Assembly: GCA_965203485.1 (NCBI GenBank)
Contig: OZ241892.1
Span: 2,368,001-2,432,000, forward strand
DNA from: Longimicrobiales bacterium
GTDB taxonomy: Bacteria; Gemmatimonadota; Gemmatimonadetes; Longimicrobiales; Gaopeijiaceae
Direction: 5' to 3'
DNA length: 64,000 nt
This document shows, piece after piece, positions 46,308 to 62,400 of this stretch. The notes below the pieces were generated by a model that saw only the letters and a list, made by a program, of their open reading frames with translations, was not told the DNA's origin and made no database searches. Both the position numbers and the translations under genes were made by a program. Positions within the stretch are counted from its first letter, which is position 1. Each line of letters starts with the position of its first letter.

Positions 46308-47849
46308 ATGGCGGCGGAGAAATGGAGCCCCAGCCGGGGCGGACGGATCGGACTCGGGCTCGGGGCGGCCACGTTCCTGTTGTTGCTCTTCGTGCCGGTC
46401 GCGCCGGACAACCTGCCTGCGAGCCGGATGGCCGCGGTGGCCGCGCTCATGGCCGTCTGGTGGGTGACGGACGCCATTCCGCTGTTCGCGACCGCGCTGA
46501 TGCCGCTGGCGCTGTACCCGTTGCTGGGGATCATGTCGGGCCACGACGTGGCGCCGATCTACTTCAACCACACGATCCTGCTGTTCCTCGGCGGCTTCAT
46601 GATCGCGCTCACGATGGAAAAGTGGGACCTGCACCGGCGGATCGCGCTCTCCATCATCCACGTGGTGGGCGGCGGGCCGGCGCGCATCGTGCTGGGCTTC
46701 ATGATCGCGGCCGCGTTTCTGTCGATGTGGATCTCGAACACGGCCACCGCGGTGATGATGGTGCCGATCGGCTTGGCGATCGCCCTGCGCGTGGAAGACG
46801 AGGCGGGCAAGCGGGCGGCCCGGCCCTTCTCGGTGGGGCTGATGTTGGGGATCGCCTACGGGGCGTCGGCGGGCGGGCTCACGACGCTGGTGGGCACGCC
46901 GCCGAACTTGGCGTTCGAGCGCATCTTCGGGATTCTGTTCCCGGAGGCGCCGGGCATCGGGCTGGGCCAGTGGATGGTGGTGGGCGTGCCCGTGGGGGCG
47001 ACGCTGCTGGCGGTGGCTTGGCTGCTGATCACGCACGTGCTCTTTCGGGTGCCCGCGGGCGTGACGGTGGACCGCCGAGTCGTGGAGCAGGAGCGGGCGC
47101 GCATCGGCAAGATGGCCTACGAGGAGAAGGTCGTCGCCGCCGTGTTCGCCGCCACGGTGGTCCTTTGGGTCCTGCGCACCGACCTCACGCTACCGTTCGG
47201 GACCATTCCAGGCTGGTCGGGGCTGCTGCCGTTCGGGAGCCTGATCGACGACGGCACCATCGCCATCGCCATGGCCAGCGTCCTGTTCTTCGTGCCCGCG
47301 CGAAATCGGGAGAGCGGCGCGGTGCGCGTCATGGGGCCCGACATCGTGCCCAGGCTGCCGTGGCACATCGTGCTGCTGTTCGGCGGCGGCTTCGCGCTCG
47401 CGGCCGGCTTTCAGCAGACCGGCCTGGCCCAGATCATCGGCAACCAGTTCACCGCGCTGGGAGGCGTGCCCCCGTTCGCGCTGATCCTCCTGGTGTGCGC
47501 GGCGATCACCTTCCTCACCGAACTCACGAGCAACGCCGCCACCACCGAGATGATCCTGCCCATCCTGGCCTCCGTCGCCGTCGCGACCGGCACGCACCCC
47601 CTGCTGCTGATGATTCCGGCCACGCTCTCGGCGTCCTGCGCATTCATGATGCCCGTGGCCACCCCTCCCAACGCCATCGTCTTCGGAACCGAACGCATCA
47701 AGATCGGCGACATGGCGCGCACCGGCATCTTCCTCAACATGGTCGGCGTGCTGGTGGTGGCAACCGTCGTCTACACGCTCGGGCTCTCCGTGTTCGGCAT
47801 CGATCCGGGCGAGCTGCCCACCTGGGCGGAGACGCTGGCGCAACCCTGA
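46308..47849 (+). CDS. SLC13/DASS family sodium:anion symporter
   Basis: SMWISNTAT, GTPPN, SNAAT, PVATPPNA; multiple TM segments. Confidence 0.95.
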   Translation: MAAEKWSPSRGGRIGLGLGAATFLLLLFVPVAPDNLPASRMAAVAALMAVWWVTDAIPLFATALMPLALYPLLGIMSGHDVAPIYFNHTILLFLGGFMIALTMEKWDLHRRIALSIIHVVGGGPARIVLGFMIAAAFLSMWISNTATAVMMVPIGLAIALRVEDEAGKRAARPFSVGLMLGIAYGASAGGLTTLVGTPPNLAFERIFGILFPEAPGIGLGQWMVVGVPVGATLLAVAWLLITHVLFRVPAGVTVDRRVVEQERARIGKMAYEEKVVAAVFAATVVLWVLRTDLTLPFGTIPGWSGLLPFGSLIDDGTIAIAMASVLFFVPARNRESGAVRVMGPDIVPRLPWHIVLLFGGGFALAAGFQQTGLAQIIGNQFTALGGVPPFALILLVCAAITFLTELTSNAATTEMILPILASVAVATGTHPLLLMIPATLSASCAFMMPVATPPNAIVFGTERIKIGDMARTGIFLNMVGVLVVATVVYTLGLSVFGIDPGELPTWAETLAQP

Positions 47850-47879
47850 TTCGCCGCTCGATGGAGCGTCGATGATAAC

Positions 47880-47932
47880 ATGGCCGTTTTTGACACATCG
47901 CGATTTCCCGTCGTTGCCGTTTCGATAGATGC
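47880..47932 (+). promoter_or_regulatory. Island element copy 1 (~53 bp, putative promoter/operator)
   Basis: ATGGCCGTTTTTGACACATCGCGATTTCCCGTCGTTGCCGTTTCGATAGATGC; starts 104 bp before the next ATG. Confidence 0.7.
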
Positions 47933-47983
47933 GCAAGCCACGAGGGCTCGCGAGTCGCGCGCACCAGACAAGGATAAGTTCCC

Positions 47984-48505
47984 ATGCGGACCATGCTCAA
48001 GCTGACTGCAGCTACGCTCGCCGTCACGGCCGCGATGTTGGCGTTTCCGTTGGCCAACACTTGGTCGTTGGACGCACAGTGCGTCGTTTGCAGCAAGACA
48101 GGCAATTGCGAGGACGGGAGAGGTGGATCGTCCTGCGTATCGGAGATGAACTCCGACGAAGACAAGCGTTGCACAGTCTCGGGGGGTTGCGAATGCACGA
48201 GAGTGGTACGACGCTGGTGGTTCGACACCGTCGTATGCACGCCGACCCTCGCCACTGCGTTGCCCTCTGTCGATGCTCGTCTCGTCGACTACGGTGGAAG
48301 CGAGATGGCGTTGCAACGCGTAGGACCGAGCCATTTCGCGGCAACCCAGTGCGGAGCGAACGACGACTGGGTGCTTCTTGCGCGCGAGTTGCCGGACGGC
48401 GAGTTGGTCGTCACCACGAATCCGATGATCATTCGCCTGCGACGCTGGACGCATGGCCTCGACTTCTCGCGGCAAGCTGACTCCCAAATAGCGACGCAAT
48501 CATGA
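47984..48505 (+). CDS. Secreted Cys-rich small protein (8 clustered Cys plus 1)
   Basis: Signal peptide, then C-x2-C-x5-C-x8-C-x11-C-x5-C-x-C-x13-C; stop overlaps next start (ATGA). Confidence 0.8.
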   Translation: MRTMLKLTAATLAVTAAMLAFPLANTWSLDAQCVVCSKTGNCEDGRGGSSCVSEMNSDEDKRCTVSGGCECTRVVRRWWFDTVVCTPTLATALPSVDARLVDYGGSEMALQRVGPSHFAATQCGANDDWVLLARELPDGELVVTTNPMIIRLRRWTHGLDFSRQADSQIATQS

Positions 48506-49557
48506 ATGTTCCCGCCAAGGCGGCGATGCTTTGCGCGCTGAGTTTGGCGGCGGCCGTTTCCTCGGCCGCCGCCGTCCAGCCGACGGCGCCGCATTCGTTC
48601 CAAGTCGGCGTTCGGGAGATCTGGAGCACCTACGGCGATCCAGGTTGGGGGGAGCCGATGGGCATGTTGCAATGGCCGGACGGCACCGTCTGGGTTGGCG
48701 ACTATCAAGTCTCGGAGGTTTGGGAGCTCTCAGCCGACGGCACAGAGCCGAGACGGGTTCTCCGTGAAGGCGAAGGTCCAGGCGAGCTGACCGGCGTGTC
48801 TTGGATCGTGCCGTATCGGGATGGCGGAGTTGTCGTGATGGATGCTCGGAACTTCCTGTTCTTCGGAGCAGACAAGGGATTCGTTCGGCAAGTGAGATGG
48901 AGCGCTTTCTCCGGAAGAGCCGGCTTGGTGGCAACTCCAAACGGCGATCTGGTCGTCAGCGGGGGCTCGATGCACGAAAACCACGAACTGGCGCACTTCG
49001 CCGTTCACCGCTTCCACAGGAAGCGCGGGTGGCACGTCAAGAGCTGGCACCCGGCCGCCGACCACCGACAGTGGGAAACGATTCGCCTTACGTCCGGCGG
49101 GCCGATCGCCCTTGCGAAGGATGGAGGACTCCTGGTGTCCGAGAAAGCGCCGTTCAGGATCACTCGCTACTCCGACTTGATGGGCAACGGAGCCCAACTT
49201 GTGATCGAGGACGAAGACGTGGTGTCCACATCGGAGCGGGACCGGGTGGTGACGTATACGCCCACCGGCTACAGCGTGACCACCGGTTGGACGCGGTCGA
49301 TCTTCGTCCACGAGATGGAGGGCGGTAACATTCTCAACGTCGTGAAGGTGTGGCCGGAGAATGTCGCCGCGGGCGCGAGCAACGAATGGCTCGTCGTGTC
49401 GCCGGACGGACGCATCTTGGCCCGAACACCCACCGAGAGGTCGTACGATGTCTGGAACGCAACGCCAGACGGCCATTATTTGGCGACGTATTGGGATCGC
49501 GACTCGTCGCAGACGGCGGTGGCCAAGCTGGAAGTGACAGTGGCGCCAAATCCGTGA
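48502..49557 (+). CDS. Secreted 6-bladed beta-propeller-type protein
   Basis: Signal peptide; REGEGPGEL motif; repeated blades (PDGTVWVGD, PNGDLVVS, KDGGLLVS, PDGRILA). Confidence 0.75.
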   Translation: MNVPAKAAMLCALSLAAAVSSAAAVQPTAPHSFQVGVREIWSTYGDPGWGEPMGMLQWPDGTVWVGDYQVSEVWELSADGTEPRRVLREGEGPGELTGVSWIVPYRDGGVVVMDARNFLFFGADKGFVRQVRWSAFSGRAGLVATPNGDLVVSGGSMHENHELAHFAVHRFHRKRGWHVKSWHPAADHRQWETIRLTSGGPIALAKDGGLLVSEKAPFRITRYSDLMGNGAQLVIEDEDVVSTSERDRVVTYTPTGYSVTTGWTRSIFVHEMEGGNILNVVKVWPENVAAGASNEWLVVSPDGRILARTPTERSYDVWNATPDGHYLATYWDRDSSQTAVAKLEVTVAPNP

Positions 49558-49694
49558 AGGCTATCCCGTCGTTATTTCCGGTGCTCGAGCAGGCGTTGGT
49601 AGGGCCGGGCGTTTCGCGGAGGCGGCTCTCGGAGCGCTCGCGTGTCGGCCGAATCCGCGCGTTCGCGCCGATGCACGTACCGCAGGGAACTCCG

Positions 49695-49747
49695 ATGGCC
49701 GATTTTGACACATCGCAATCTGCCGTCGTTGCAGTTTCCATTGATGC
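49695..49747 (+). promoter_or_regulatory. Island element copy 2
   Basis: ATGGCCGATTTTGACACATCGCAATCTGCCGTCGTTGCAGTTTCCATTGATGC; 46/53 identical to copy 1, no gaps. Confidence 0.7.
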
Positions 49748-49838
49748 CAAGGCAGTGCGCGGGCTGTCTGCTCACCCTATAGGAGCCGCGAGCGTCCGAC
49801 GGCCTCGCGAGCCATGGACCCGCAAGGGAGACAATCCC

Positions 49839-51050
49839 ATGTCCACTACGATGCGCGCAGGGCGGGATGGCGGCCGTGGGCCGTCTCGGTGCTGGCGGCG
49901 CGAGCGCCTTCGCCGCGTCGCTTTGCTCAGCTACGGGCGTCCGGTTTTGCCCGCCTTCGTCATAGCTGTCTTCGCGGTTCTTGGGTGCCAGCGCTCGAAA
50001 GCCCCCGATGTCGCCATCGACGAGCTCGCCATGGACATCGCGCCGTTCGCTACCGTGGTCGGCCTCCGGCCAAGCGAGACCGCCTTGGCGCTCCCGCCCC
50101 ACGAGACCGTCGCATCCTACCCCGCGAACTCGCCCCGCTATCACAGTACCGAACTAGCGGTGGCGGCCGACGGCACCATCGCGATAGGCGACCCGCGTTC
50201 CTGCTCGATTCTCCTTCTGGCCGACACCGGTCGGCACATGCGCCGAATCGAGGCATGCGCCGACACGGGGCGCGGGATCGATGATCTCTTTTGGGTCGAC
50301 CGAGACCTGCTGGGTCTCTTCGACATGCGCTCGAGGGAAGTGCGGCTACTTGGCCGCCACGGCGAGGACGCGGGCCGGGTTCCGGTCGAGCCGGTGCAGA
50401 GCGGAGTGATCACCGCCGCCTTCCCGCTCCCCGCCGACAAGTCGATTCTTGCGGCTGTCGGCTTCTTCTCGCTATCTGGACGTGAGCGCTTCGTTCAACT
50501 GCACGACTCGGGCGGTACGCCCAAGGCGGCATTCCTCTCCGCTCCGGCAGTAGCGTTGCGCCCCGACCTCCGCCTCGCGTTTGGCGTGGAGCTTTGCCTG
50601 CGACAGTCGCCCCGCCCCGGCGCCGCGCGTTTTCTCGCAATCAATCGGTGGGCGCACGACGTCGTCATGGCCGTGCCGGACGACTCGGCCGTCGCTTTCA
50701 GAAGCCTCGTGCCCATGGACGCCTACATGTATCGGGACGAGAACGACTTGCTCGCACCCTCGCCGGGCCGGGTCGCCGTGGCCTGCGGCGAAGACTCTGG
50801 CCTTGCGCATCGCACAGTTCTGCGCAGTAGACCAGATGGAGGAACAGAAACCAACGGCGTACTCGATTGGATCTCGTTTACCGGCGGCTTGATTGCCCGG
50901 TTCGATCTCGGTTCTGCGCCATTGTTCGCACGGTCGAGGGAAATAGGGATCGACAGCGCCGACCGCGCCTACGCGCTGGTTCGTGATTCCTCGGACTTGC
51001 GCGTAATACGACATCCGCTTGCGCGTCCGCCTGAAATCCACGAAAAGTGA
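49839..51050 (+). CDS. Lipoprotein, divergent beta-propeller-type
   Basis: GGAG RBS, start MSTTMRAGRDGG; lipobox VLGC; blades such as LAVAADGTIAIGD and IGIDSADRAYAL. Confidence 0.7.
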   Translation: MSTTMRAGRDGGRGPSRCWRRERLRRVALLSYGRPVLPAFVIAVFAVLGCQRSKAPDVAIDELAMDIAPFATVVGLRPSETALALPPHETVASYPANSPRYHSTELAVAADGTIAIGDPRSCSILLLADTGRHMRRIEACADTGRGIDDLFWVDRDLLGLFDMRSREVRLLGRHGEDAGRVPVEPVQSGVITAAFPLPADKSILAAVGFFSLSGRERFVQLHDSGGTPKAAFLSAPAVALRPDLRLAFGVELCLRQSPRPGAARFLAINRWAHDVVMAVPDDSAVAFRSLVPMDAYMYRDENDLLAPSPGRVAVACGEDSGLAHRTVLRSRPDGGTETNGVLDWISFTGGLIARFDLGSAPLFARSREIGIDSADRAYALVRDSSDLRVIRHPLARPPEIHEK

Positions 51051-51060
51051 GGACATGAAT

Positions 51061-52701
51061 ATGAAAGCGGTGCCATGGATGGTCGCTGCGACGACATGTT
51101 TGTCGGTTGCGGCTATACAGACCTTTAGACTTCGGAATCACGCAACGACTGTCCTTGAACTGACTCGCGAGAACCGCAGTCTCGAAGCCGTTGAGAGCGC
51201 CTACCGGGAGACAGCGCTCCGAGTCATCCGTGCCGAACTCGAGTCGGACTCCTTGGCGTTGGATCAGGGCACCCACGGAACCGTGTACATGATCGTGGAT
51301 ACGCAATGCCCGGCTTCCAAAGACGCTGTTCTCGCACTGAAGTACCGGGGCACGGCTATGCCGGTAGTCGTTGCCTCCTACCTGGACGGTCCTGACCGTA
51401 TTCGGCAGTGGCTGCTGGACCTCGGCGCCGACTTTGCAGTCATGCCTGTTCCTGTCCACCAGACGCCGTTGAAGAGCATGCCTCGCGGGATCACGCCCAT
51501 CTACCTGGAACTCGACGAGGTCGGTCCCATCGACGTTCACGTGGGAAAGCCGAAAGAAGAGTGGTTCCGGCAGGATCCGCAAGTGCCGGAGAGGGAGGTC
51601 CGCGAAGTGTTTCGGCTTGGCGACGGGACCGACGTGCCCGACTGGGCGGCATTCGTCCGAGAGCCCGATCTAGCCCTGGACGCGGCGGGCCGGCTCTACG
51701 CGCGGCCGCTGGGCGATGATCCGAGAGTACGCGTCATTGACGAGAACGGGGGCTTTGTCCGATACATCGGGCGGAAAGGCAACGGTCCGGCGGAGTTCAC
51801 GACGATCGACGACATGGGGTTCGCGGCCGACACCTTGTGGTTGCGGGACTGGCCGCCGGACCGCACGTCGTTCTTCGATTCGGCCGGGACGCACCTGAAG
51901 ACGGAGACCACTGTGCCTGCGTACGCGGGGCTGGAGCCCGGCCACGACGGAGAAACGATTCCGCTGCGGGACGGCTGGGCGCTCTACACCGCACCCCGAA
52001 CCACTACAGAGTACGGACGAGTGCGCGTTCCGTTGATGGTGGGGATTCGTGAATTGACGGAGAAACGCGACACCGTGGAGTTTCAGCTCAGGCCCACGGG
52101 CATGATCATACGCGGTGTCGGAACGTTTCATTGGGAGCCCGTCACGCTGTCGCCTCTTGTCGTGCCGCTGGCGCGCGGCAACGGCATCGCGGCCGCAAGT
52201 TGGACGGCAGACCGACCCGGCGAAGTCGTGCTTCGCCGCGTCCGCTTCGACGGGTTCCTCTCGAGGGAAGACACGCTCCGCTTTTCCGTTGCGGCGATAT
52301 CTCCCGAGGCACGCGATCGCATCGTCGCCGACGGCATGGAAAAGGCCAAGGGGCCCTACGAGTTCCACCGCAAGCGCTTCGGCGGCACGCCAAACGACTT
52401 GCGCGATGCGGTCATCGAGGGACTGGCGTTGCCCAGCCACTATTCGCCGTTGCAGGACATGTTCGCGACACCGGAGGACCGGATTTGGGTGCGCGCCACC
52501 GCTGTTGAAGACCAGAGCGACGGGGACTGGTTCGTCGTGGGTTCGGACGGCGTCGTGAACTTCCGCGTTCGCCCACCGTCCGGCGTGACCTTCAAAACGG
52601 CTCACGGAGATCGGGTTTGGGGAGTGGGCCAGGGCTACCTAGATACGCCGTACATCGCCTTGTACGAGCTATCTCAACCACCACAAGGAAAGGAAGGATA
52701 G
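51061..52701 (+). CDS. Fusion of N-terminal thioredoxin-like domain (CxxS) and 6-bladed beta-propeller
   Basis: TM/signal, VYMIVDTQCPAS and ITP; then LALDAAGRLY, IGRKGNGPAEF, C-terminal GDRVWGV...LDTPYIALY. Confidence 0.72.
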   Translation: MKAVPWMVAATTCLSVAAIQTFRLRNHATTVLELTRENRSLEAVESAYRETALRVIRAELESDSLALDQGTHGTVYMIVDTQCPASKDAVLALKYRGTAMPVVVASYLDGPDRIRQWLLDLGADFAVMPVPVHQTPLKSMPRGITPIYLELDEVGPIDVHVGKPKEEWFRQDPQVPEREVREVFRLGDGTDVPDWAAFVREPDLALDAAGRLYARPLGDDPRVRVIDENGGFVRYIGRKGNGPAEFTTIDDMGFAADTLWLRDWPPDRTSFFDSAGTHLKTETTVPAYAGLEPGHDGETIPLRDGWALYTAPRTTTEYGRVRVPLMVGIRELTEKRDTVEFQLRPTGMIIRGVGTFHWEPVTLSPLVVPLARGNGIAAASWTADRPGEVVLRRVRFDGFLSREDTLRFSVAAISPEARDRIVADGMEKAKGPYEFHRKRFGGTPNDLRDAVIEGLALPSHYSPLQDMFATPEDRIWVRATAVEDQSDGDWFVVGSDGVVNFRVRPPSGVTFKTAHGDRVWGVGQGYLDTPYIALYELSQPPQGKEG

Positions 52702-52703
52702 AG

Positions 52704-52949
52704 ATGAGCTGGAAAAAACTGATCAACGGACTCGCCCCGGTTGCGGTTGTCGCGTGCGGCTTGGGTCTCCTGGCTGCTCACCCAGCGCCTCCCGGCGCGT
52801 TTGCGGCTTGCGAGTTCAGCGTGGGTCCAAATCACGCGACTTGTTGTGCGTGCAACAAGAAGAGCTGCATCACCGTTGAGCACAACGGCGTGGCGAGTTG
52901 CACATTCGAGTTCTGTTCGAACACGACCTGCAACATCGGTCCGTCTTAG
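52704..52949 (+). CDS. Secreted 8-Cys peptide (81-aa precursor)
   Basis: Strong AGGA-rich RBS; signal ending AFA; C-x10-CC-x-C-x4-C-x10-C-x4-C-x4-C. Confidence 0.8.
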   Translation: MSWKKLINGLAPVAVVACGLGLLAAHPAPPGAFAACEFSVGPNHATCCACNKKSCITVEHNGVASCTFEFCSNTTCNIGPS

Positions 52950-52952
52950 CCT

Positions 52953-53371
52953 GGCTCCTTCCCTGTTTCGGCGGGCGCCGTAGGATGGAACGGGGGTACG
53001 GCGTGACTCTCGGAGCGAGGAGAGCGGATGGAGATGCGGGAGTGAGTGGAGCGGCCTGGGGCCGGAGTGGCGAATCAAGCGCGTGGACGAGGATTCGGAG
53101 CACCGGGAGGCGCGGGTGGCACTGGCGCGCAGGGCAGGCTCGCCGCTACCGTGCTCGGAGTGCGGGGGCTGGACGCCTGGGAGCGTCGAGCGGACGTCCC
53201 AGGCCTGGGGTCTACCCCGGACATTTCCACTTTGGTACGACAGCCTCCTTGCGTCCCCCGGGGTCGCCCCGCACTGGCTACCGGGCTACCTTGGCCGTGA
53301 CATCGGCCAAGGACGGCACGGCAGCCTGGAGACCACGCCGTGCTACCCTTCCCCCGTTTCGGAGGAAAGCC
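52953..53371 (+). mobile_element. Degenerate ISL3-family IS remnant
   Basis: One frame reads LGPEWRIKRVDEDSEHREARVAL...GSPLPCSECG, resembling an ISL3 transposase N-terminal zinc finger; ends GGCTCCTT...GGAAAGCC resemble ISL3 GGCTCT-type inverted repeats; no target-site duplication seen. Confidence 0.45.
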
Positions 53372-53372
53372 G

Positions 53373-54053
53373 TTGAAGTCAAGGGAACCGCCGACCGGAA
53401 CGACGGACGCGCCCTGCGACGGGCCACCGCCGAACGACGCGGGGGTGCCACCGTCCGACGATGTGGGAGCGCACAAGAAGGCGCCGACAACTCCGGATAC
53501 GCCTCCCAAGATCGACCTGGCGCGATTGCACGCCCGGGACCCGGCTCTGCTCAGGGAATTGGTCGAGGAGATCACGCCAAGCATCCGGGCGGCGATCCGC
53601 TCCTTCGCGACCGACGACGACGACGCGGAAGACCTCGTTCAGGAATGCTGGATACACATCATGGCCAAGCTGGATTGGTTCCGCCGGGACAGCTCCTTCC
53701 GAGCCTGGGCGACGGCCGTGAGCCGAAACTACTGCCGACAGGTCTGGAGGACGAGGAAGAGACGAGCGATCGAGACCGTGCACATCGACGAAGCGCCGGA
53801 GCCCGCGTCCGGCGAGCTGAACCCGAGCGAGGCGCTGGAACGGAGCGAACTGCGGCTCGCGGTTCAGAAGGCGCTGGCCCGGTTGCCGGACCGGGAACGC
53901 GACGCGGTAGTGATGAAGCTGATGGAGGGCCGCTCGACATCCTACATCTCCGGGCGCCTTCGCGTCTCGGAGCCGGCCGTGCGCAAGCTGGTTCGAAGGG
54001 CCTCGTTCAAGCTGAAGGAAGTGCGCGAACTGCGCGTCTTGTGGTTGCCGTGA
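53373..54053 (+). CDS. ECF RNA polymerase sigma factor
   Basis: Region 2 DAEDLVQECW, SFRAW; region 4 LARLPDRERDAVVM...VRKLVRRA; GGAGG before TTG 53373. Confidence 0.92.
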   Translation: MKSREPPTGTTDAPCDGPPPNDAGVPPSDDVGAHKKAPTTPDTPPKIDLARLHARDPALLRELVEEITPSIRAAIRSFATDDDDAEDLVQECWIHIMAKLDWFRRDSSFRAWATAVSRNYCRQVWRTRKRRAIETVHIDEAPEPASGELNPSEALERSELRLAVQKALARLPDRERDAVVMKLMEGRSTSYISGRLRVSEPAVRKLVRRASFKLKEVRELRVLWLP

Positions 54054-54075
54054 GGGCGGTCGTCCGCACCGCGCG

Positions 54076-54130
54076 ATGGCCGTTTTCGACACATCGAGAA
54101 CCACGACCGTTGCCGTTCACTAATAGATGC
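54076..54130 (+). promoter_or_regulatory. Island element copy 3
   Basis: ATGGCCGTTTTCGACACATCGAGAACCACGACCGTTGCCGTTCACTAATAGATGC (55 bp), immediately after the ECF sigma gene. Confidence 0.7.
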
Positions 54131-54223
54131 CGGAGCGGTCCGTCGCTCACCTGTGGCGGCCACGCGGGCGATCGCCGGGGTCCGGCCGAAAGCGCGAGCC
54201 AAGCGGAGCGCAAGGAGACGATC

Positions 54224-54310
54224 ATGTCCACTACGATGCGCGCAGGACGGGATGGAGGCCCCGTATCTGGACCATCCAATCGGCACCGTTGGCCAGCAAG
54301 CTTCCGTTGA
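54224..54310 (+). CDS. Putative 28-aa leader ORF (MSTTMRAGRDGG...)
   Basis: AAGGAG RBS; first 12 aa identical to gene 49839; its TGA overlaps a TTG in the AraC frame. Confidence 0.45.
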   Translation: MSTTMRAGRDGGPVSGPSNRHRWPASFR

Positions 54311-55144
54311 CTGCACGTCGTACGCCACCGCCACCGTTGCTGGCTCTCATGGGCAACGCAACTCTTCGAAGGCGGTTGCGCATGGCCATCGACTACGGTC
54401 CGGCGTCCCGAGTCATTGGGCCGACGATCTTTGCTTCCGGCTGGCGGGAACTCCGCGAACTCGTGCGACGCCACGATCGTTCGCCTGCGGTCGTCGACCT
54501 TGGGTTTCGAACCTCGGCGGACCCTCCTGACGCCTGCTCAGTCCGTGTGCTACGCGGCACTTCGGTGCCGCTGATCACCTGCGCTCGATCAAACGGTGTG
54601 GGCCGAACCGCACTGGAGGACCACGCGCCGCGCGGCGTATGCATAGCGGCCGCATGGCGGCCGACCGCGGACGACAGCAGCGGAACCGTCACGGCGGACG
54701 TGCTAAGGGCGGCTGACGTGCACACCGTCAACGGCTTACTGGCAGGCGTTGCAAAGCGAACGCGTGAAGAGGTCGAACGGATTTTTTCGGCCGTTCTCGC
54801 CATCGCGGTCCGCCGGTCGACGGTGCGGGAGCTGGCTGCGGCCCTGGCGCGGTCTCAACGTTCGCTCCGACGGCACTGCACGGAGCTTTGCATTCCGCCG
54901 CCGAAAAGGCTTCTTTCCTTGGGGCGAGTCTTCACCGTCGAGCGCCTCGCCGAGTGGAGCGGACAGCCGGCAGGCGCGGTTGCGCTGGCGCTCGGGTTCT
55001 CGGACTACGCGAATTACCGCCGACCTGGTTCGCAACGCGCTGGCCGACGCGGCCTCACCGGTTCCGCATCGCGTCGGGCTGGCCTACGTGAGACGATTCA
55101 TCCTGCAAGTTCTTGCGGCTAACGCAGGCCGTCGCACCCGGTGA
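54307..55144 (+). pseudogene. AraC-type HTH regulator with +1 frameshift near 55024
   Basis: TVRELAAALARSQRSLRRHC and AVALALGFSDYANYRR; continuation LVRNAL...GLAYV lies in the next frame, whose stop (55144) overlaps the next GTG. Confidence 0.7.
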
Positions 55145-55575
55145 GGTCGGTCTTCCCCGGAAGGGACAGCATCAAATGTCGATCCGATCGGATGTTTCTT
55201 TGGCTGGTGATTGCCGGTGCCGTCCAAGTCGGCATTGTGGCCACTCGCGTGTTCGACGGCCAGAGCACTCCGAGGGCTTCATTGTCCGTAGGCGATACGT
55301 TGCGGTCTTTGCCAGGCGCCACGCTTGCGGACCAATCGGCGACCGTGGACATCGCTTCGGATTCGGTTTTGGCCACCGTGCTGTACGTCTTCCATCCGGA
55401 CTGCGCTCATGGACTCGCGGTGGCGCCGACGTGGGCCGAACATTTTGCCGGCACTTCGGCCAAGGATTCGCTTGTCCGCCGGATAGCCGTAACCAGCGCG
55501 CCGCCCTCAGTTTCGGCGAGTTACGCCAAGCGCTTCGGTTGGAGCGTTGCGTTGCTGGAGATAAGGATCGCGTGA
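55141..55575 (+). CDS. Membrane-anchored redoxin/thioredoxin-fold protein, degenerate (CAHG) and apparently C-terminally short
   Basis: TM segment, LSVGDTL, VLYVFHPDCAHGLAVAPTW; no cis-Pro (TP) strand before the stop. Confidence 0.65.
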   Translation: MRSVFPGRDSIKCRSDRMFLWLVIAGAVQVGIVATRVFDGQSTPRASLSVGDTLRSLPGATLADQSATVDIASDSVLATVLYVFHPDCAHGLAVAPTWAEHFAGTSAKDSLVRRIAVTSAPPSVSASYAKRFGWSVALLEIRIA

Positions 55576-55600
55576 ACCCTGTTTTCGACAGGAGATGGAG

Positions 55601-55801
55601 ATGAAGATTACTCGAACTATCGTCGTCACCGCTGTCAATGTCTTACTTCTTCCGCTCACGCTAGGATCGTTCACCATCGGCCATCAACGCGCCGTAGGGC
55701 TGTTTGATTGTTGCCGCGAATCAGCGAATGGTTCTTATTGTTGCCGCAACTGCTGCTGGACCACTCGTGACTGTGACGGACCCGGGGATTGCAATGTCTG
55801 A
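55601..55801 (+). CDS. Secreted 8-Cys peptide (CC-x8-CC-x2-CC-x5-C-x5-C)
   Basis: GGAG RBS; hydrophobic N-terminus; three vicinal CC pairs. Confidence 0.8.
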   Translation: MKITRTIVVTAVNVLLLPLTLGSFTIGHQRAVGLFDCCRESANGSYCCRNCCWTTRDCDGPGDCNV

Positions 55802-56981
55802 TCGTGCGGCGCGTGCGAACAGCTTTTCATGGCGTGTCGGCGCAATCTTCTTGTCGCTGGCCGTCTTGTACGGACTCTATGCGCTTCAAGCGCTCGACAA
55901 TTTCTCCGCCAGCGTGTCCATGCCGAGGAGACTGATCATGACCGCCGCTTCCGCCAGCGTTGCGTTGGCGATGCTGGTTCCGGTGGCGACCTTCGCGGCG
56001 GCTCTTCACAGATTCGACCTGTTCGACGAAACGACGCTGGGCAGCAGGCGACGCGATTGGACCTTGCTTGCTCTGGCGGGGCTCGGCTCCTACGTGTCGA
56101 GCACCATCGGTCCTCTGGCTTCGGCCGCCGGAACGTTTTCCGATCGCCCGGTGGCCGGCATCGCAGCGATGATCCTGGTCCCGGTGGCGATAGGCATCTT
56201 CTCGATCGTCGCCGGGATTGCAGGCGCGCTGGTCGGCCAGCTCACCGAGTGGATGATTCCCTGGCGGCGCCAAGTCGCGAGGTGGGCGGCATGCCTGGCG
56301 CTGCTTTTCTTCTTTTGCGCCGCTGTGGTGGCCGTGGACGCGCTGGTTGCAAGGTACGGGTGGCCGGTCGCGTGGTTGTTCGTGCCGGGGCCGCTGGCAG
56401 TTCCGGCGGCCGCCACGTGGGTCATGTTGCGCGTTCAGGGCTACCGCGTTCGCGACATGCTGCCGGTGCCTGTTGCGGGCACCAGGCGCCGTCCGCTGGG
56501 ACCCGAGGCCCTGGACCGGCTTGCAACGACCGTCGCCAGAGCCGATTGGGAGCTGGCGGCTCCCGTCGTCGAGGGCAAGGCCGAGGCGGGCCAACCTCGC
56601 ACGGCGTCCGGGCACGAGAGCGAGATGGCCGCCTTCTTGAGTGGGCTCCGACATGTCGCTCTCCCAGACCTGAAGGTGAGCGACGCCCAAGTGGAGAAGA
56701 TCGTCCACGCGGTCGTCGCGGCGGCTCCCGACTCTTCCCCCGCGTCGGAACCCAGTTCGCAACGCCTCGTTGCCCGGCAACGTCGGCTGGATCTCGCCAC
56801 CGTCGCAGAACTGGGCGTGTCCTGGGCGAGCCTTGCCGTGGGCCTAGTGCTCCTGGGAGCCGTTGGCGGCGTGCCGCCGAACGTCGGAGCCGCCGCGGGC
56901 ATCGGACTGCTGGGCAGCGTCGCCGGCATCTGGATCAACCGCCGGCGCCTGTCGCTGTCCTCGCCGACGACGACCACTTGA
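55794..56981 (+). CDS. Multi-pass membrane protein of unknown function
   Basis: About 8 hydrophobic segments; ATG overlaps the peptide gene end. Confidence 0.75.
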   Translation: MSDRAARANSFSWRVGAIFLSLAVLYGLYALQALDNFSASVSMPRRLIMTAASASVALAMLVPVATFAAALHRFDLFDETTLGSRRRDWTLLALAGLGSYVSSTIGPLASAAGTFSDRPVAGIAAMILVPVAIGIFSIVAGIAGALVGQLTEWMIPWRRQVARWAACLALLFFFCAAVVAVDALVARYGWPVAWLFVPGPLAVPAAATWVMLRVQGYRVRDMLPVPVAGTRRRPLGPEALDRLATTVARADWELAAPVVEGKAEAGQPRTASGHESEMAAFLSGLRHVALPDLKVSDAQVEKIVHAVVAAAPDSSPASEPSSQRLVARQRRLDLATVAELGVSWASLAVGLVLLGAVGGVPPNVGAAAGIGLLGSVAGIWINRRRLSLSSPTTTT

Positions 56982-57089
56982 AGCGGGACGGCCCGCAAAC
57001 TACTGGCTTCCGTCAAGTGCAGAAAGACGGATAGGCGAGAGTCGGGGTCGTGCGGTCTGCGTCGCCGAGCGGCTCCGGCAAGCGATGGC

Positions 57090-57895
57090 ATGGCGATAAG
57101 CTACTCGTTCTCGACAACAAGAACAGGAGACTGACCATATTCGGCGCGGACGGCCAGCTCATGTCCTCCCAGCGACTGCCGACCACGGAGTTGCCGTGGT
57201 GGTTGTGGACGCGCTGATCGCACGGCGCGGCTTGGGGGGCGGCGTAGTTGTTCGTGGTTGCCGGAGACGCCGATTCGATGTTGTTGCGGCCGGGGAGCTG
57301 GGCGTGTCCTGGGCGGGCATTGTCGCAGGTCTGTTGCTCGGGGGCATCGGTCGGCGGCTTGGCGCCCAACGTCGGGGCCGTCGCAGGCGTCGGATTGCTG
57401 TTCCGTCGCCAGCGTCTGGATGGCTCGTCGCCCGACGGCGCGCATGCAACCGACAGCAATGCTGTTCCGCTTGCGCCGGTGATGGCCATTTTCGTTGTGG
57501 CAGCCACCTGTGGCGAGCAAGTGGACAACACCGGCACTTTGGCCACCAGGGGCGACACTATAGGACGGGGTCGTGCATATCCACAATGCCGGAGTCGCGC
57601 TGACGACGGCTTCGGCCCGCGGACCCTTGCTGTTCCGCCGGGCACGACGAAGCAGGCCCCACGGGTGGCACCGGATGGCCGCCTGTGGGTCGAAGTCCTC
57701 CCCATCGGCGGCAACCGATGGGAAGTCTTCGATCCCGACGGGGGACGTTGCTGGGCATGTTGCCCTCTCGGGATCGGAGCCGGCTCGGCCACCGGCGCTC
57801 GGCCCAGGATCGCTTGTTCGCGATCGTTCGCCAGGACAGTCTGGAGCTCGACGATGTAGAGCTCTACCGTGTGGTGTGGTGGAACTTCGATGACT
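57090..57895 (+). pseudogene. Mosaic of decayed fragments of island genes
   Basis: 57090-57190 matches 59043-59143; 57196-57256 matches 56325-56384; 57271-57400 matches 56784-56912; ~57660-57893 is a frameshifted propeller C-terminus. Confidence 0.8.
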
Positions 57896-57898
57896 GGC

Positions 57899-57951
57899 AT
57901 GGCCAGTTTTGACACATCGAGACTCGTCCTCTCTGTCATTCTCATGAGTGC
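57899..57951 (+). promoter_or_regulatory. Island element copy 4
   Basis: ATGGCCAGTTTTGACACATCGAGACTCGTCCTCTCTGTCATTCTCATGAGTGC; starts 103 bp before the next ATG. Confidence 0.65.
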
Positions 57952-58001
57952 GAGGATGTCAGATCGCATCCATTCAACTCCATATCTGAAGGGAGCCGGA
58001 A

Positions 58002-58238
58002 ATGAAGAACGCCATCCGCAGGATTGGCCGCGCCTTGGCCGTGACGACCGCGTTCGCCCTGGTCGCTCTGACACCGTCGGAGTCGCCGCTGGACGGCATT
58101 AAGCAAAAGGCATGCCGCTCGGTCGGATGCCCCGACGAGACCGACCTCCACTGCATATCGACGACCATCTCGGTTGAAACCCCGTTCGTCAGCGGTGAGG
58201 TGAGCGTGACCTGTTACGAGCCCGCCCGACCAAAGTGA
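58002..58238 (+). CDS. Secreted 4-Cys peptide A
   Basis: GGAG RBS; signal peptide; AC-RSVG-C-x7-C-x19-CYE. Confidence 0.8.
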   Translation: MKNAIRRIGRALAVTTAFALVALTPSESPLDGIKQKACRSVGCPDETDLHCISTTISVETPFVSGEVSVTCYEPARPK

Positions 58239-58313
58239 CCCGCTTCGGCAAATTCCGAGAGTGCCGCTGAAGCACGAATGGCATCACAAGTCACAACCAA
58301 TAAGGAACTGGTA

Positions 58314-58592
58314 ATGGTCATTGTTGCTAGAATTCTACCGACGGCTCGGCTTGTCAGCTTGGCAACGGGATTCATCGTTGCGACGCCGATGATGCTGAGT
58401 GATGTCCGAGCGCAACAAGAGGACCCCGAACAAGAAAATGTCGACGCGTGCGAATCCCTTGGTTGCGCCGGCGGCGATCTTGTTTGCGCAGAGTATGACG
58501 AGACAAGAATCGTAATGACGATCGATCTCGGCGATATTGTTATCGAATTCATCGAGACGGAGACAGTCATATGCTACGAGAGTCGCAACTGA
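58314..58592 (+). CDS. Secreted 4-Cys peptide B (paralog of A)
   Basis: TAAGGA RBS; signal ending VRA; AC-ESLG-C-x6-C-x28-CYE. Confidence 0.8.
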   Translation: MVIVARILPTARLVSLATGFIVATPMMLSDVRAQQEDPEQENVDACESLGCAGGDLVCAEYDETRIVMTIDLGDIVIEFIETETVICYESRN

Positions 58593-58696
58593 CGGCGTCG
58601 GAGATGCACATGTCGGCAGATGCGATTCCAGTGGCGCCGAATGGCGGCCTGATGAAGAGAGACCCCAGGAGAATGGTGACGAAGATGAGGAGAATG

Positions 58697-59767
58697 ATGA
58701 CGAAGATGAACACGTTCCAACATCGGTGGCTACCGGCCGTCATGTTGCTCGCTCGCATCTTGGGTGCGATTTGCGTCCTGGCGGCCGGCGGAGCCGAGGG
58801 CCAAGCCACGCAACGCAATTGGCTTTCGCAACCGGTGCTCGACTTCTCGGTGGAGGACCCAGATGGGACGGTGCTCGGGAACCCGCTTCGCATCACGGCC
58901 AGTCCGGGAGGGGGCTTTGTCGTAAGCGACTGGGCAGACTTCGCCGTCCAAGCGTTCTCGCCTCGGGGCGAGCCGCTCTGGCGGTTCGGAAGGCAGGGCC
59001 GGGGGCCGGGCGAGTTCCTGCAGTTCATGCACATGGAATACGATGGCGACAAGCTACTCGTTCTCGACAACAAGAACAGGAGGCTGACCGTACTGAGTGC
59101 GGACGGCCGCCTCGTGTCCACCCAACGACTGCCGGCCACGCAGATGTCGCAGGTGCTGCCGGCGTTCGGCTCCAGCCGCAGAGTGCTCAGGCCCTTCATA
59201 GGTGGCCGCGACACGCTATGGGTGTCGGTGTCCGAGTCAGGCAGGGTGGCTTCGGCGGCCCCCATGCCGGGCAAAGTCGCTTTTCAGGACGACATCGTGG
59301 GGGAGTCCTTCACGAGCCGGGCCGGCGCCGGTGCCGTTGTCGCCTTTAGATGGTCGAGCCAGCTAGTGCTCTTGGACGAGAGCGGCGGCGTCAGAACCGT
59401 TGCCGAGGGCATCGAGCGCGTGGCGTTCCCCAAGATGAAGAAGTACGAAGTGGATCCCAATATCGAGGGCGTCACAAAGCTCGTAGCCCGGCGGGTGGAC
59501 CCGAAGGCGACACCGGCCGCCCGCTCCGTAGCGGCCGACAGCCGACGAGTGTTCGTTCTCTTTCGCGGCCAGACGGAATACCGAGACAGGATCGTCGACA
59601 CGTACGACGCCCGCCTCGGAGACTATCGAGGCTCCATTCTATTGCCGAACAAGGTCGCCGACATCGCCATGCTGGCGGATGGCCGCCTGGCGACGCTGGA
59701 GACGGACTTCTTCCCCATCGTGCGGGTCTGGCATATCGCGGATGAAACAGCCGGACGGCATCCATGA
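58697..59767 (+). CDS. Secreted 6-bladed beta-propeller-type protein
   Basis: Signal ending AEG; WRFGRQGRGPGEF; IVDTYDARLGDYRGSILLP; start approximate. Confidence 0.8.
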   Translation: MTKMNTFQHRWLPAVMLLARILGAICVLAAGGAEGQATQRNWLSQPVLDFSVEDPDGTVLGNPLRITASPGGGFVVSDWADFAVQAFSPRGEPLWRFGRQGRGPGEFLQFMHMEYDGDKLLVLDNKNRRLTVLSADGRLVSTQRLPATQMSQVLPAFGSSRRVLRPFIGGRDTLWVSVSESGRVASAAPMPGKVAFQDDIVGESFTSRAGAGAVVAFRWSSQLVLLDESGGVRTVAEGIERVAFPKMKKYEVDPNIEGVTKLVARRVDPKATPAARSVAADSRRVFVLFRGQTEYRDRIVDTYDARLGDYRGSILLPNKVADIAMLADGRLATLETDFFPIVRVWHIADETAGRHP

Positions 59768-60243
59768 ACGGGGCTGAGAATGCCATTCCGATGCGTTCCA
59801 CATCATCTCGTCTCGGCTTGTTCGCCGCGCTGGCTGTCGTCGGGTGCGCCAGCGCCGAGGCTACAAAGAAGCGCGAACTGACTCTGTCGGAAGTTGCGGG
59901 GACCGAGACGGGCATAGTCGTCTTGGCGCATCCGTTCAGTTGCGCTCTGTCGGGGGAAGACGCTCGCCGCTTGAACTTGGCCGGGACAGACGGTCGATTG
60001 GCTGTTCGGGTCTTCTTCCTGGCGTCGTCCGCCGATAGCTTGGCCGTCGAGCGTGCGGCCACCGACTTGGGATTGGAGGTGCCGTACGCGTCGCTGTCCG
60101 CAGAGCGCGCCGCCACTCTCTTCCGGGCCACGGGGATGGGAACGCCCATGTTCGCCCTCATGCGGCACGGTCGTATTGTTGCGATGGTGGGCAACGTTGG
60201 CGCCGACTACGCGCTGGACATCATCGACAGCATCTTGCGTTGA
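59764..60243 (+). CDS. Small lipoprotein, probable degenerate thioredoxin fold
   Basis: Lipobox VVGC; IVVLAHPFSC (single Cys); GTPMFALMRHGRIV; ATGA overlap with the propeller gene. Confidence 0.65.
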   Translation: MNGAENAIPMRSTSSRLGLFAALAVVGCASAEATKKRELTLSEVAGTETGIVVLAHPFSCALSGEDARRLNLAGTDGRLAVRVFFLASSADSLAVERAATDLGLEVPYASLSAERAATLFRATGMGTPMFALMRHGRIVAMVGNVGADYALDIIDSILR

Positions 60244-60305
60244 GAGCGACTGCCCCCGGGGCAAGTCCTTCCGCGACTTCGTACACGATGCCGGAAGCTG
60301 AACCG

Positions 60306-60725
60306 CTAGTCGCCCGCGTCCGCGGCGAGCACGGCGCGCAGGCGGGCTTCCTCCAATCCCCAGTCGGCCAGGGCGCGTTGCGATTCCTGATCGTCGGCGC
60401 CGGCGACGGCGATCAGGAGATGGACGCTGGCCGTGGGGGCGCCGGTGGTTGCGCCGAGTTCCACGGCGGCGGCCAGGACGTCTTGGGAGGCCGCCGAGAA
60501 CGGGATGTGGTTCTCGTGCGTGACCGGCAGGTCGCGCAGGGTGGACGGCAGGTCGTCCAGGTCGAGATCGGCCCGCCGGACGAACTCGGCGAGGGCCGGG
60601 TCGCGCTGGGACGCCACGCCCGCCAGCAGATGCCGGGGCTCCACCAAGGCGGCACCGTCCCGGGCGGCCGCGGCGGCGGAGCGGTTCAGGGCGTGGACGG
60701 CGTCCTCCGCCAAGTTGACGCTCAC
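60306..60725 (-). CDS. Clp N-terminal (Clp_N repeat) domain protein
   Basis: VEPRHLLAG, IPFSAASQDVL...SVHLLIAV; GTG overlaps upstream stop. Confidence 0.8.
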   Translation of the reverse strand: MSVNLAEDAVHALNRSAAAAARDGAALVEPRHLLAGVASQRDPALAEFVRRADLDLDDLPSTLRDLPVTHENHIPFSAASQDVLAAAVELGATTGAPTASVHLLIAVAGADDQESQRALADWGLEEARLRAVLAADAGD

Positions 60726-61302: not shown

Positions 61303-62400
61303 TTGGTCGTTGCGGACACGGTCGGAATGCCTGCGGACGGGCGCTTCCAGGCGGAGGTGCGGATCGAACCGTCGGCGCGCGTCGAACTCATCGACGTGCA
61401 GAAGCAGTTGGCCCGCGAGTTCGGGGCCGACTTCACGAAGCATCCGAAGGCGCTCTACGTCTCGCACCACACCACGGCCGGCTACCTGGACCAGCGCCTC
61501 GCCGCCCGGCTCAAGTACGACGGCGAGAACGTGCGCGACTTCCTTCAGGTCTTCCACAAGCTCTTCCCGCCCGACGCCGGCTACGTGCACGACGAGATGC
61601 ATCTGCGCCGCGAGCTGTCCGACGAGCAACGTGCCACGGAGCCCAAGAACGCCGACTCGCACCTGACCTTCATGGGCGCCGGCCTCAAGAGTTGCGCGTC
61701 CTACGACCAGCGCGACGGCCAGCCGGTCTGGTTCGTCGAACTCGACGGCGTGCACGAAGGCGGAAAGCGCCGCCGCACCACCACGGTGGTCGGCTACGGC
61801 GGCGAAGAGGAAGTCGCGAGCGCCCAGATCGAAGTGGAGGTGCCGTCGCACGCCATCGACGCCAGCAACTTGCGCGACCCCGAGCACGGCTTCATGGACC
61901 GCCTTCTTGGCCTGGCTCGGCAACACGGCGTCTCGTTCGGGCGGTTCGACGTGTCGCTGGCCGCGTCCGAGCGCAACGCGGGCCTCACGGTCAACGAATA
62001 CGAGACGCTGCTCATGAGCCACGACCTGCGCGAGGTCTTGGCCGACCCCTTCCGCTTCGTCGCGGAGAAGAGCAAGGCGGCGCTGATGGACCCGCGCTCG
62101 ATCCCCGCCAAGACGGTCAACTACGCGCAGTACGACGCCGTGCAGCTGCTGAACAAGCTGCTCGACCGCATGGGCGTGCGGCAGTCCGTCGTGGAGCGCG
62201 TCGTCAACCGCGCGCTGGCCTTCCCCGTGTCGCACTTCCTGCGCATGAAGCGCGGCATCAGCCTGCCGGTGCTGGACCTGGGAGGCGACGGCGAGGGAGA
62301 CATCCCCAGGGGCACCTATCAGAGCCCGATCCTGGTGCAGTGGAGGGGCTCCGAGCAGAGAACGCGGACGTTGGAGGTGCGGCTGTTCCGGTTCGTTTGA
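61303..62400 (+). CDS. YjbQ/UPF0047-like protein with an apparent tandem domain
   Basis: HHTTAG, NADSHL, ELDG in first half; GLTVNE, SHFL, GTYQS in second half. Confidence 0.7.
   Translation: MVVADTVGMPADGRFQAEVRIEPSARVELIDVQKQLAREFGADFTKHPKALYVSHHTTAGYLDQRLAARLKYDGENVRDFLQVFHKLFPPDAGYVHDEMHLRRELSDEQRATEPKNADSHLTFMGAGLKSCASYDQRDGQPVWFVELDGVHEGGKRRRTTTVVGYGGEEEVASAQIEVEVPSHAIDASNLRDPEHGFMDRLLGLARQHGVSFGRFDVSLAASERNAGLTVNEYETLLMSHDLREVLADPFRFVAEKSKAALMDPRSIPAKTVNYAQYDAVQLLNKLLDRMGVRQSVVERVVNRALAFPVSHFLRMKRGISLPVLDLGGDGEGDIPRGTYQSPILVQWRGSEQRTRTLEVRLFRFV

What the first reader, a model, noticed from the sequence alone, without database searches (positions are those of the whole stretch)
47880..60243. 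Modular island of secreted Cys-rich peptides, beta-propellers and thioredoxin-fold proteins with an ECF sigma factor: candidate undescribed disulfide-peptide system
Seen: about 12.4 kb, all genes on +, visibly lower GC than the flanks. Four modules each open with the same ~53-bp element: (1) Cys-rich protein + propeller; (2) propeller lipoprotein + Trx-propeller fusion + 8-Cys peptide; (3) AraC + redoxin + 8-Cys peptide + membrane protein; (4) two 4-Cys peptides + propeller + Trx-like lipoprotein. An ECF sigma sits between modules 2 and 3. No radical SAM, LanM, YcaO, MNIO or peptidase-ABC exporter was recognised. Known analogy: Bacteroidota NVEALA-type small proteins often sit beside 6-bladed propeller lipoproteins. 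Inference: Sec-exported disulfide-rich peptides are folded by the Trx-fold proteins and bound or displayed by cognate propellers. Possible roles are ligand/receptor, toxin/immunity, host interaction or metal binding.
Basis: partly seen in the sequence, partly recalled or inferred. Interest (0 to 1): 0.9.

Follow-up and report, generated by a model that had tools for sequence, protein, structure and literature searches.

The report
Peptide-linked sigma switch with propeller cassettes
This 12-kb insert in a marine bacterium (likely Gemmatimonadota) stacks swappable gene cassettes for small, likely exported cysteine-rich proteins and their propeller-shaped partners around a conserved sigma-factor switch, whose unusual membrane protein is predicted to bind the sigma factor and would likely sense one of the peptides; I found no paper that describes it.

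Summary
The island is real: 64% GC against 72% in the flanks, absent at this site in one relative, four copies of the element, and all four peptide types conserved elsewhere.

Module 3 plus the ECF sigma form a six-gene unit, conserved in shuffled order in Longimicrobiales. Of 25 loci found through the redoxin alone, 25 carry the 8-Cys peptide, 25 the membrane protein, 23 the ECF, 22 a propeller and 21 the AraC.

The membrane protein is a predicted anti-sigma: an LptF/G-like six-helix domain plus a cytoplasmic segment modelled on the ECF (0.68, best control 0.00; mark reached by 116 of 157 solved and 2 of 215 mismatched pairs). In other genomes that segment is fused to a propeller. Other peptides keep their own propeller subfamily across genera.

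Peptide binding, expression and signal are untested.

The parts
47880..47932 (+). Element copy 1: conserved 20-nt arm, 16-17-nt variable spacer, second conserved arm; likely promoter or operator; left edge of the insert
   Evidence: also at the left edge of the G001 insert at this site
47984..48505 (+). 173-aa protein: signal-like N-terminus, 8-Cys domain, C-terminal domain with a ninth Cys
   Evidence: 8 homologues in 4 of 200 family genomes; Cys pattern kept; its propeller subfamily follows in 6 of 7 loci
48502..49557 (+). 351-aa six-bladed propeller-type protein, cognate partner gene of the 173-aa protein
   Evidence: weak NHL hit; own profile
49695..49747 (+). Element copy 2, followed by a leader and first 12 codons shared with copy 3
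49839..51050 (+). 403-aa divergent propeller, likely lipoprotein (lipobox read by eye)
   Evidence: own profile 2.4e-22; 61% orthologue in the same order in G001 (L015)
51055..52701 (+). 548-aa fusion: long N-terminal helix, thioredoxin-fold domain (CxxS, cis-Pro TP), six-bladed propeller
   Evidence: AlphaFold pLDDT 92.6; NHL and DUF4221 top folds; stand-alone N-domain homologues mostly CxxC; homologue P0051 matches Redoxin/Thioredoxin_2 models at TM 0.66-0.68
52704..52949 (+). 81-aa peptide, signal-like N-terminus, 8 mature Cys
   Evidence: 68% orthologue behind the fusion orthologue in G001; replaced by other sequence in strains X5 and X6
52953..53190 (+). ISL3 insertion-sequence left-end relic, not part of the system
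   Evidence: 11 hits genome-wide; longer copies carry the ISL3 zinc ribbon
53340..54053 (+). ECF sigma factor (true start uncertain; conserved part begins near 53502)
54076..54128 (+). Element copy 3, directly after the ECF as in G002
54349..55144 (+). AraC-type regulator, frameshifted near its end by one extra base at 55024 in this strain (start uncertain)
55192..55575 (+). Membrane-anchored redoxin-like protein, CxxG, truncated about 45 aa early in this strain
55595..55801 (+). 68-aa peptide of the conserved 8-Cys family (CC..CC..CC..C..C), the core peptide
   Evidence: 8 invariant Cys in 15 sequences; 20 of 70 family genomes besides G000, one weak hit outside
55794..56981 (+). 395-aa predicted anti-sigma: LptF/G-like six-helix membrane domain, cytoplasmic three-helix segment, two more membrane helices
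57033..57898 (+). Decayed fragments of a propeller gene and of the membrane gene
57899..57951 (+). Element copy 4
58002..58238 (+). 78-aa 4-Cys peptide
   Evidence: 31% identical to its neighbour; homologues beside the same propeller and thioredoxin-like genes in G269 and G196
58314..58592 (+). 92-aa 4-Cys peptide, paralogue (start may be 58278)
58706..59767 (+). DUF5128-type six-bladed propeller (start may be upstream, ORF from 58571)
   Evidence: PF17170 above cut-off
59764..60243 (+). 159-aa single-Cys (CxxS) thioredoxin-like likely lipoprotein; right edge of the insert
   Evidence: weak Redoxin hit E 0.047; 2 homologues in 200 family genomes, both beside this propeller type and a 4-Cys peptide

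Best explanation
The island is an inserted stack of peptide-plus-propeller cassettes around a conserved six-gene unit in which a membrane protein is predicted to hold the ECF sigma factor inactive and likely releases it when a likely exported, disulfide-bonded peptide is sensed. Shown: gene linkage, cognate pairing, shuffling, domain fusions. Predicted: the fold of the membrane protein and its binding across both sigma domains. Inferred: peptides leave by Sec; the redoxin forms or checks their disulfides; each propeller binds its own peptide and presents it; the six-helix domain, or in other genomes a fused propeller, is the sensing input of the anti-sigma; the freed ECF, perhaps with the AraC, transcribes from the repeated element. 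The outcome would be a strain-specific self-made signal with exchangeable specificity. In this strain the broken AraC and redoxin suggest partial decay.
For: Of 25 loci found by the redoxin profile alone, 25 have the 8-Cys peptide, 25 the six-helix domain, 24 the helical segment, 23 the ECF, 22 a propeller, 21 the AraC, 17 all six, in several gene orders and orientations. ECF plus residues 235-327 of the membrane protein: score 0.68, best of 3 controls 0.00; mark reached by 116 of 157 solved and 2 of 215 mismatched pairs; runs agree in at least 76% of contacts; partner pLDDT at least 59; the interface spans sigma regions 2 and 4. A profile of the membrane protein's C-terminal part hits the N-terminus of 8 of 8 proteins that follow the ECF in 7 other genomes (E 1e-16 to 2.5e-8 at Z=1e6; reversed control none); the two held at full length end in a propeller. 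In those genomes the six-helix domain stands alone just before the ECF. Cognate pairs hold across genera. In strains X5 and X6 the peptide stretches are replaced and the adjoining propeller differs at 160 of 1184 bases, against 19 of 1180 for the membrane gene. 8 of 14 sigma-factor hits in the genome lie within 3 kb of a propeller; such DNA is 11% of the genome. The two best new hits of the element matrix (25.9 and 25.3 bits) lie upstream of genes in another ECF-AraC-propeller locus; 0 of 25 column-shuffled matrices gave two hits that high, 1 of 25 gave one.
Against: No peptide-propeller or peptide-membrane binding was tested. ECF/anti-sigma complexes are solved, so the pass may reflect likeness; my own alignments were used, so the calibration holds only roughly. 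The helical segment did not match a neighbouring zinc-type anti-sigma candidate by sequence (E 0.61). The LptF/G match (Z 12.3, rmsd 4.3-4.5, about 200 aligned; next unrelated 7.9) is under the tool's caution level for helical bundles, and Foldseek gave nothing at E<=0.001. The fused propellers have a lipobox-like stretch before the propeller (read by eye), so they may be cleaved off. The element has a longer spacing than I recall for ECF promoters and was not found at the 36 other loci scanned. 34 of 47 propeller clusters in the genome lack a detected peptide, and close orthologues of two island propellers often stand without one. The 25 loci are kin, several share a genome, and several are the DNA the profiles were built from.
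Confidence: 0.5

Rival explanations
1. The peptides are antibacterial weapons against kin. Propellers and the six-helix membrane domain give immunity, and the ECF circuit switches immunity on when the peptide arrives, as SdpI does for SdpC.
For: Many unrelated Cys scaffolds sit directly before a propeller (15 of 23 curated peptides within 600 nt); peptides are replaced between strains; orphan propellers are common, as orphan immunity genes are; two modules elsewhere in the genome are followed by an ABC ATPase. SdpI joins immunity and signalling in one six-helix protein (PMC2910880, passages).
Against: No toxin or bacteriocin family hit; the core peptide keeps its pattern across genera; several peptides are acidic; the membrane protein matched no SdpI model.
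Confidence: 0.22
2. Propellers and thioredoxin-fold proteins are folding and display helpers for exported mini-proteins that act on metals or on the sponge host. The ECF pair answers a general envelope or redox stress and does not sense the peptide.
For: Redoxin within 1.5 kb in 26 of 29 peptide loci; thioredoxin-propeller fusion; ECF-controlled Sec-exported Cys peptides bind copper in bufferins (PMC11626156, passages); related strains were laid from a sponge and a marine metagenome.
Against: No MNIO in this 95% complete genome; it does not explain the anti-sigma segment fused to a propeller or to the six-helix domain; NHL genes were not enriched in sponge symbionts in the one comparison I read, which was of Actinobacteriota (PMC11706023, passages).
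Confidence: 0.2
3. In this strain the island is a decaying pile of cassettes gathered at an insertion hotspot and is largely inactive, although the parent system works elsewhere.
For: Frameshifted AraC, truncated redoxin, gene relics and an IS relic; different content at the site in G001 and none in G002.
Against: ECF, membrane protein, all five Cys-rich genes and four propellers are intact; paralogous AraC and redoxin genes exist elsewhere in the genome.
Confidence: 0.08

Closest known systems
ECF sigma with membrane class I anti-sigma (RpoE-RseA, SigW-RsiW; recalled, reviews seen only as search listings)
   Same: ECF sigma next to a membrane protein whose cytoplasmic helices are predicted to bind sigma regions 2 and 4 at once.
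   Different: The sigma-binding segment is internal, has no zinc motif and no Pfam anti-sigma hit, and is fused either to an LptF/G-like six-helix domain or to a propeller; peptide, redoxin and AraC genes are fixed partners.
SdpC-SdpI-SdpR of Bacillus subtilis (PMC2910880, passages)
   Same: An exported peptide, a six-helix membrane protein and a cytoplasmic regulator that the membrane protein would sequester.
   Different: No sequence likeness found; the regulator here is a sigma factor, so sequestration would repress rather than induce; propellers and redoxins have no counterpart; toxicity is not shown.
Bufferins (PMC11626156, passages)
   Same: Sec-exported Cys-rich peptides under an ECF sigma and anti-sigma, with a membrane oxidoreductase-type gene.
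   Different: No MNIO in the genome, no DUF2063 or DoxX hit in the island; propeller partners instead.
Bacteroidota NVEALA small proteins beside DUF5128/TolB-like propellers (recalled from Pfam names; no paper)
   Same: Small exported Cys protein directly before a six-bladed propeller; nearest solved folds include Bacteroides DUF4221 and BF0058.
   Different: No NVEALA hit for any peptide; function of those loci is itself unknown.

Membership tests
ECF sigma / anti-sigma systems | Sigma factor with regions 2 and 4 only | tested here: met
   Sigma70_r2 and r4_2, TIGR02937 above cut-off
ECF sigma / anti-sigma systems | Linked membrane protein that binds the sigma factor | tested here: inconclusive
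   Linked in 23 of 25 loci; model supports binding, 0.68 against control 0.00, mark reached by 116 of 157 solved and 2 of 215 mismatched pairs; not measured
Class I zinc anti-sigma (ZAS) | HxxxCxxC zinc motif in an N-terminal anti-sigma domain | tested here: not met
   No such motif in the 27 aligned segments; segment is internal in the window's protein
ECF sigma / anti-sigma systems | Sigma-specific promoter before target genes | tested here: inconclusive
   Bipartite element 103-148 nt before start codons, extra hits at another ECF locus; recognition not testable
LptF/LptG permeases | Six-helix membrane domain of this fold | tested here: inconclusive
   Top three VIA hits are LptF/G, Z 11.8-12.3, rmsd 4.3-4.9, 196-208 aligned; 4 of 31 members hit PF03739 weakly, best E 3.6e-4
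LptF/LptG permeases | Periplasmic beta-jellyroll domain | tested here: not met
   Model is all-helical
Bufferins (MNIO-modified RiPPs) | MNIO (DUF692) enzyme | tested here: not met
   0 matches in G000, 95% complete; control genome rang
Bufferins (MNIO-modified RiPPs) | Cys-rich precursor with Sec signal | tested here: inconclusive
   Signal-like N-termini by a hydrophobicity rule only; no SignalP available
SdpI immunity/signalling family | Sequence match to SdpI | tested here: not met
   No SdpI model among the Pfam hits of 31 members at E<=1
NVEALA plus propeller loci | PF14055 match in the small protein | tested here: not met
   No Pfam hit for any of the five Cys-rich ORFs at E<=0.05
DUF5128 / NHL six-bladed propellers | Profile or fold match | tested here: met
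   PF17170 above cut-off for 58571 ORF; fusion model matches NHL domains at E 3e-11
Thiol-disulfide oxidoreductases | Thioredoxin fold with CxxC and cis-Pro loop | tested here: not met
   Fold supported but window copies are CxxS, CxxG (truncated) and CxxS; family members mostly CxxC

The most novel reading that the evidence does not exclude
Longimicrobiales run a modular peptide-signalling system in which unmodified disulfide mini-proteins are self-made ligands, six-bladed propellers are their cognate receptors, and a new anti-sigma family has turned an LptF/G-type transporter membrane domain (or a fused propeller) into the sensor that controls an ECF sigma, with cassettes swapped between strains to change the code.
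Probability: 0.3. Interest if true: 0.85.

Novelty: new variant of a known kind. Interest (0 to 1): 0.64.

Why it matters
It offers a testable role for a very large, unexplained gene pairing: this one genome has 84 propeller ORFs and about 20 Cys-rich small genes of varied scaffolds. A predicted anti-sigma with an exchangeable input domain gives a direct read-out (ECF-driven transcription) for finding what the peptides and propellers do, and all core genes can be tested in a laboratory host. It would also add a new anti-sigma architecture and a natural library of disulfide mini-protein scaffolds.

Tried and rejected
Element as RNA: no Rfam match at E<=1 in 47500-60500. Element as a widespread motif: the strict pattern matched 0 of 40 relatives; a looser one found one exact copy each in G001 and G002; nothing above 16 bits in the loci. 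The 220-bp repeat before the ECF is an ISL3 relic, not a regulatory RNA. Frameshift as assembly error: contigs of runs X1 and X2 match the window without differences, but they may be its source sample. Expression: no RNA holder listed, which says nothing either way. Membrane protein: no usable Atlas hit, no Foldseek hit at E<=0.001, 6 homologues in the protein search, no earlier scan note by sequence. Helical segment against a zinc-type anti-sigma candidate at G000 465 kb: no match; the membrane gene beside it matched only weakly (probability 37%). Fusion N-domain against PDB sequences: best E 0.03, a glutaredoxin; the fold searches were filled by the propeller. ECF searches in metagenome contigs gave no confirmed hit and one close locus among 80. 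Literature: searches returned 0 papers; some searches returned listings whose titles and abstract starts do not describe this system; the Palauibacterales paper PMC10469786 has 0 occurrences of propeller, cysteine, bacteriocin, RiPP or sigma in its main text. Supplements were not read, and subscription journals are mostly outside the library.
Full report
Observation. The island is present as described. GC is 64.0% against 71.8%. The four element copies are the only ones in the genome. The site between the SLC13 gene and the ClpN-like gene is empty in G002 and carries a different 3-kb insert in G001 that also opens with the element. Pfam and NCBIfam name only the ECF, a weak AraC HTH, three propellers and a weak redoxin; no RiPP enzyme or exporter family hit the ORFs scanned, and no MNIO was found in the genome. 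The lineage is inferred from named relatives: 24 of 25 homologous loci are titled Gemmatimonadota, Gemmatimonadetes, Gemmatimonadaceae or Longimicrobiales, one Chromatiales.

The AraC has one extra base at 55024; runs X1 and X2 agree with the window, while related strains in X5 (marine metagenome) and X6 (sponge metagenome) lack it. The redoxin ends before the conserved TPW strand. 57033-57900 is gene debris and 52953-53190 an ISL3 relic. The three thioredoxin-fold proteins have one Cys in the active-site motif. Their families are mostly CxxC: 17 of 25 redoxin loci and 11 of 12 stand-alone homologues of the fusion's N-domain; the two homologues of the 159-aa protein are also single-Cys.

Genome context. 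An iterated profile finds 84 propeller ORFs, fragments included. A rule-based scan found 31 small ORFs with a signal-like start and at least 4 Cys; 18 had a ribosome-binding motif and 16 of those lie within 3 kb of a same-strand propeller (12 of 14 without the window's four), while 16% of free DNA lies that near. In a hand-curated list of 23, 15 have a propeller starting within 600 nt downstream; but only 13 of 47 propeller clusters have a listed peptide. So peptides nearly always have a propeller, and propellers often have no peptide.

Cognate pairs. The 173-aa protein has 8 homologues in 7 loci of 4 genomes, and its own propeller subfamily follows in 6 of the 7. Module 2 is kept in order in G001. 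Module 4 (4-Cys peptide, propeller, single-Cys thioredoxin-like gene) recurs in two other genera.

The conserved core. The 8-Cys peptide at 55595 defines a family with 8 invariant Cys, found in 20 of 70 sampled genomes of the same family and, weakly, in 1 of 330 others. Of 30 loci returned I dropped that weak one; among 29, redoxin lies within 1.5 kb in 26, a propeller in 23, the membrane gene in 16 and the ECF in 11. A separate scan with the redoxin gave 25 loci with wider flanks: peptide 25, six-helix domain 25, helical segment 24, ECF 23, propeller 22, AraC 21, all six in 17. Orders and orientations vary. These loci are kin, some share a genome and several supplied the profiles, so the counts are not independent trials.

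The membrane protein. The model (pLDDT 83.4, pTM 0.76) shows six membrane helices, three cytoplasmic helices and two more membrane helices. The first domain is closest to LptF/LptG (Z 11.8-12.3, rmsd 4.3-4.9, about 200 aligned, next 7.9), echoed by weak Pfam hits in 4 of 31 members; Foldseek found nothing significant. In 7 genomes the protein is split around the ECF: the six-helix domain stands before it, and the helical segment with its membrane helices begins the gene after it, which in the two full-length cases ends in a propeller. Folded with the ECF, residues 235-327 scored 0.68 against a best control of 0.00; the mark was reached by 116 of 157 solved and 2 of 215 mismatched pairs; runs agree in at least 76% of contacts and partner pLDDT is at least 59. 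The contacts cover sigma regions 2 and 4, as I recall for class I anti-sigma domains. The model supports binding and does not show it; likeness to solved complexes may contribute.

The element. Six copies share a 20-nt arm, a variable 16-17-nt spacer and a second arm, 103-148 nt before start codons. The two best new hits in the genome lie before the ECF and before the propeller of another ECF-AraC-propeller locus, and the best new hit among relatives lies before an ECF in G001; shuffled matrices gave two such scores in 0 of 25 trials. A promoter or AraC operator is the likeliest reading. Copies 2 and 3 also share a leader and 12 codons, and a strain rearrangement ends 5 nt before copy 3, so the element may also serve as homology for cassette exchange. 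It seems limited to this genus.

Mechanism. Shown: linkage, pairing, shuffling, fusions. Predicted: folds and ECF binding. Inferred: export, disulfide formation, peptide binding by propellers, sensing and promoter use. I give the self-signal reading 0.5, weapon with induced immunity 0.22, helper genes under general stress control 0.2 and decay 0.08. The first two share the same wiring.

Comparison and novelty. It works like an ECF/anti-sigma switch and resembles SdpC-SdpI (PMC2910880, passages read) and bufferin loci (PMC11626156, passages read) in layout, but fails their membership tests. Nine searches aimed at this system or its parts showed no description; most results were seen only as listings and no supplements were read. 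Earlier notes of this scan report peptide-propeller cassettes, and ECF operons with a different, thioredoxin-bearing anti-sigma, in other Gemmatimonadota; those are unchecked notes and not evidence. Verdict: new variant of a known kind, interest 0.64.

Noticed in passing
G000:C1:460044-460217: 57-aa likely exported peptide with a knottin-like C-C-CC-C-C spacing before a propeller; the knottin label is recalled.
   Followed up: no
L213:7347-8731 and L219:7571-9042: Helical-hairpin-type Cys peptides followed by a propeller, an ABC ATPase and an unnamed membrane protein: a possible second module type with its own transporter.
   Followed up: partly
L217:2071-6038 (G000 395-400 kb): ECF sigma, a 309-aa exported protein with an HEYAH motif, then two tandem 173-aa Cys-domain protein plus propeller pairs.
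   Followed up: no
L212:10395-13627 (G000 462-466 kb): ECF, redoxin, 8-Cys peptide, membrane protein, second ECF and a small protein with a zinc-type anti-sigma-like motif and membrane helices.
   Followed up: partly
L014:11760-11900 (G001): The start region of the 4-Cys peptide gene is joined directly to the propeller orthologue, as if the peptide had been deleted.
   Followed up: partly
window 63141-63515 (-) and next ORF: HicB-like antitoxin with a likely HicA partner in low-GC DNA at the window's end.
   Followed up: no
window 61303-62400 (+): 365-aa conserved protein with only a weak UPF0047 hit over a short part; 93-96% identical in both genus relatives.
   Followed up: no
genome-wide, G000: 11 ISL3 left-end hits, 6 within 3 kb of propeller genes.
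   Followed up: partly
L014:6045-6265 and L011:16041-16926: Short tandem repeat arrays of 18 and 21 nt beside the islands in G001 and G002.
   Followed up: no
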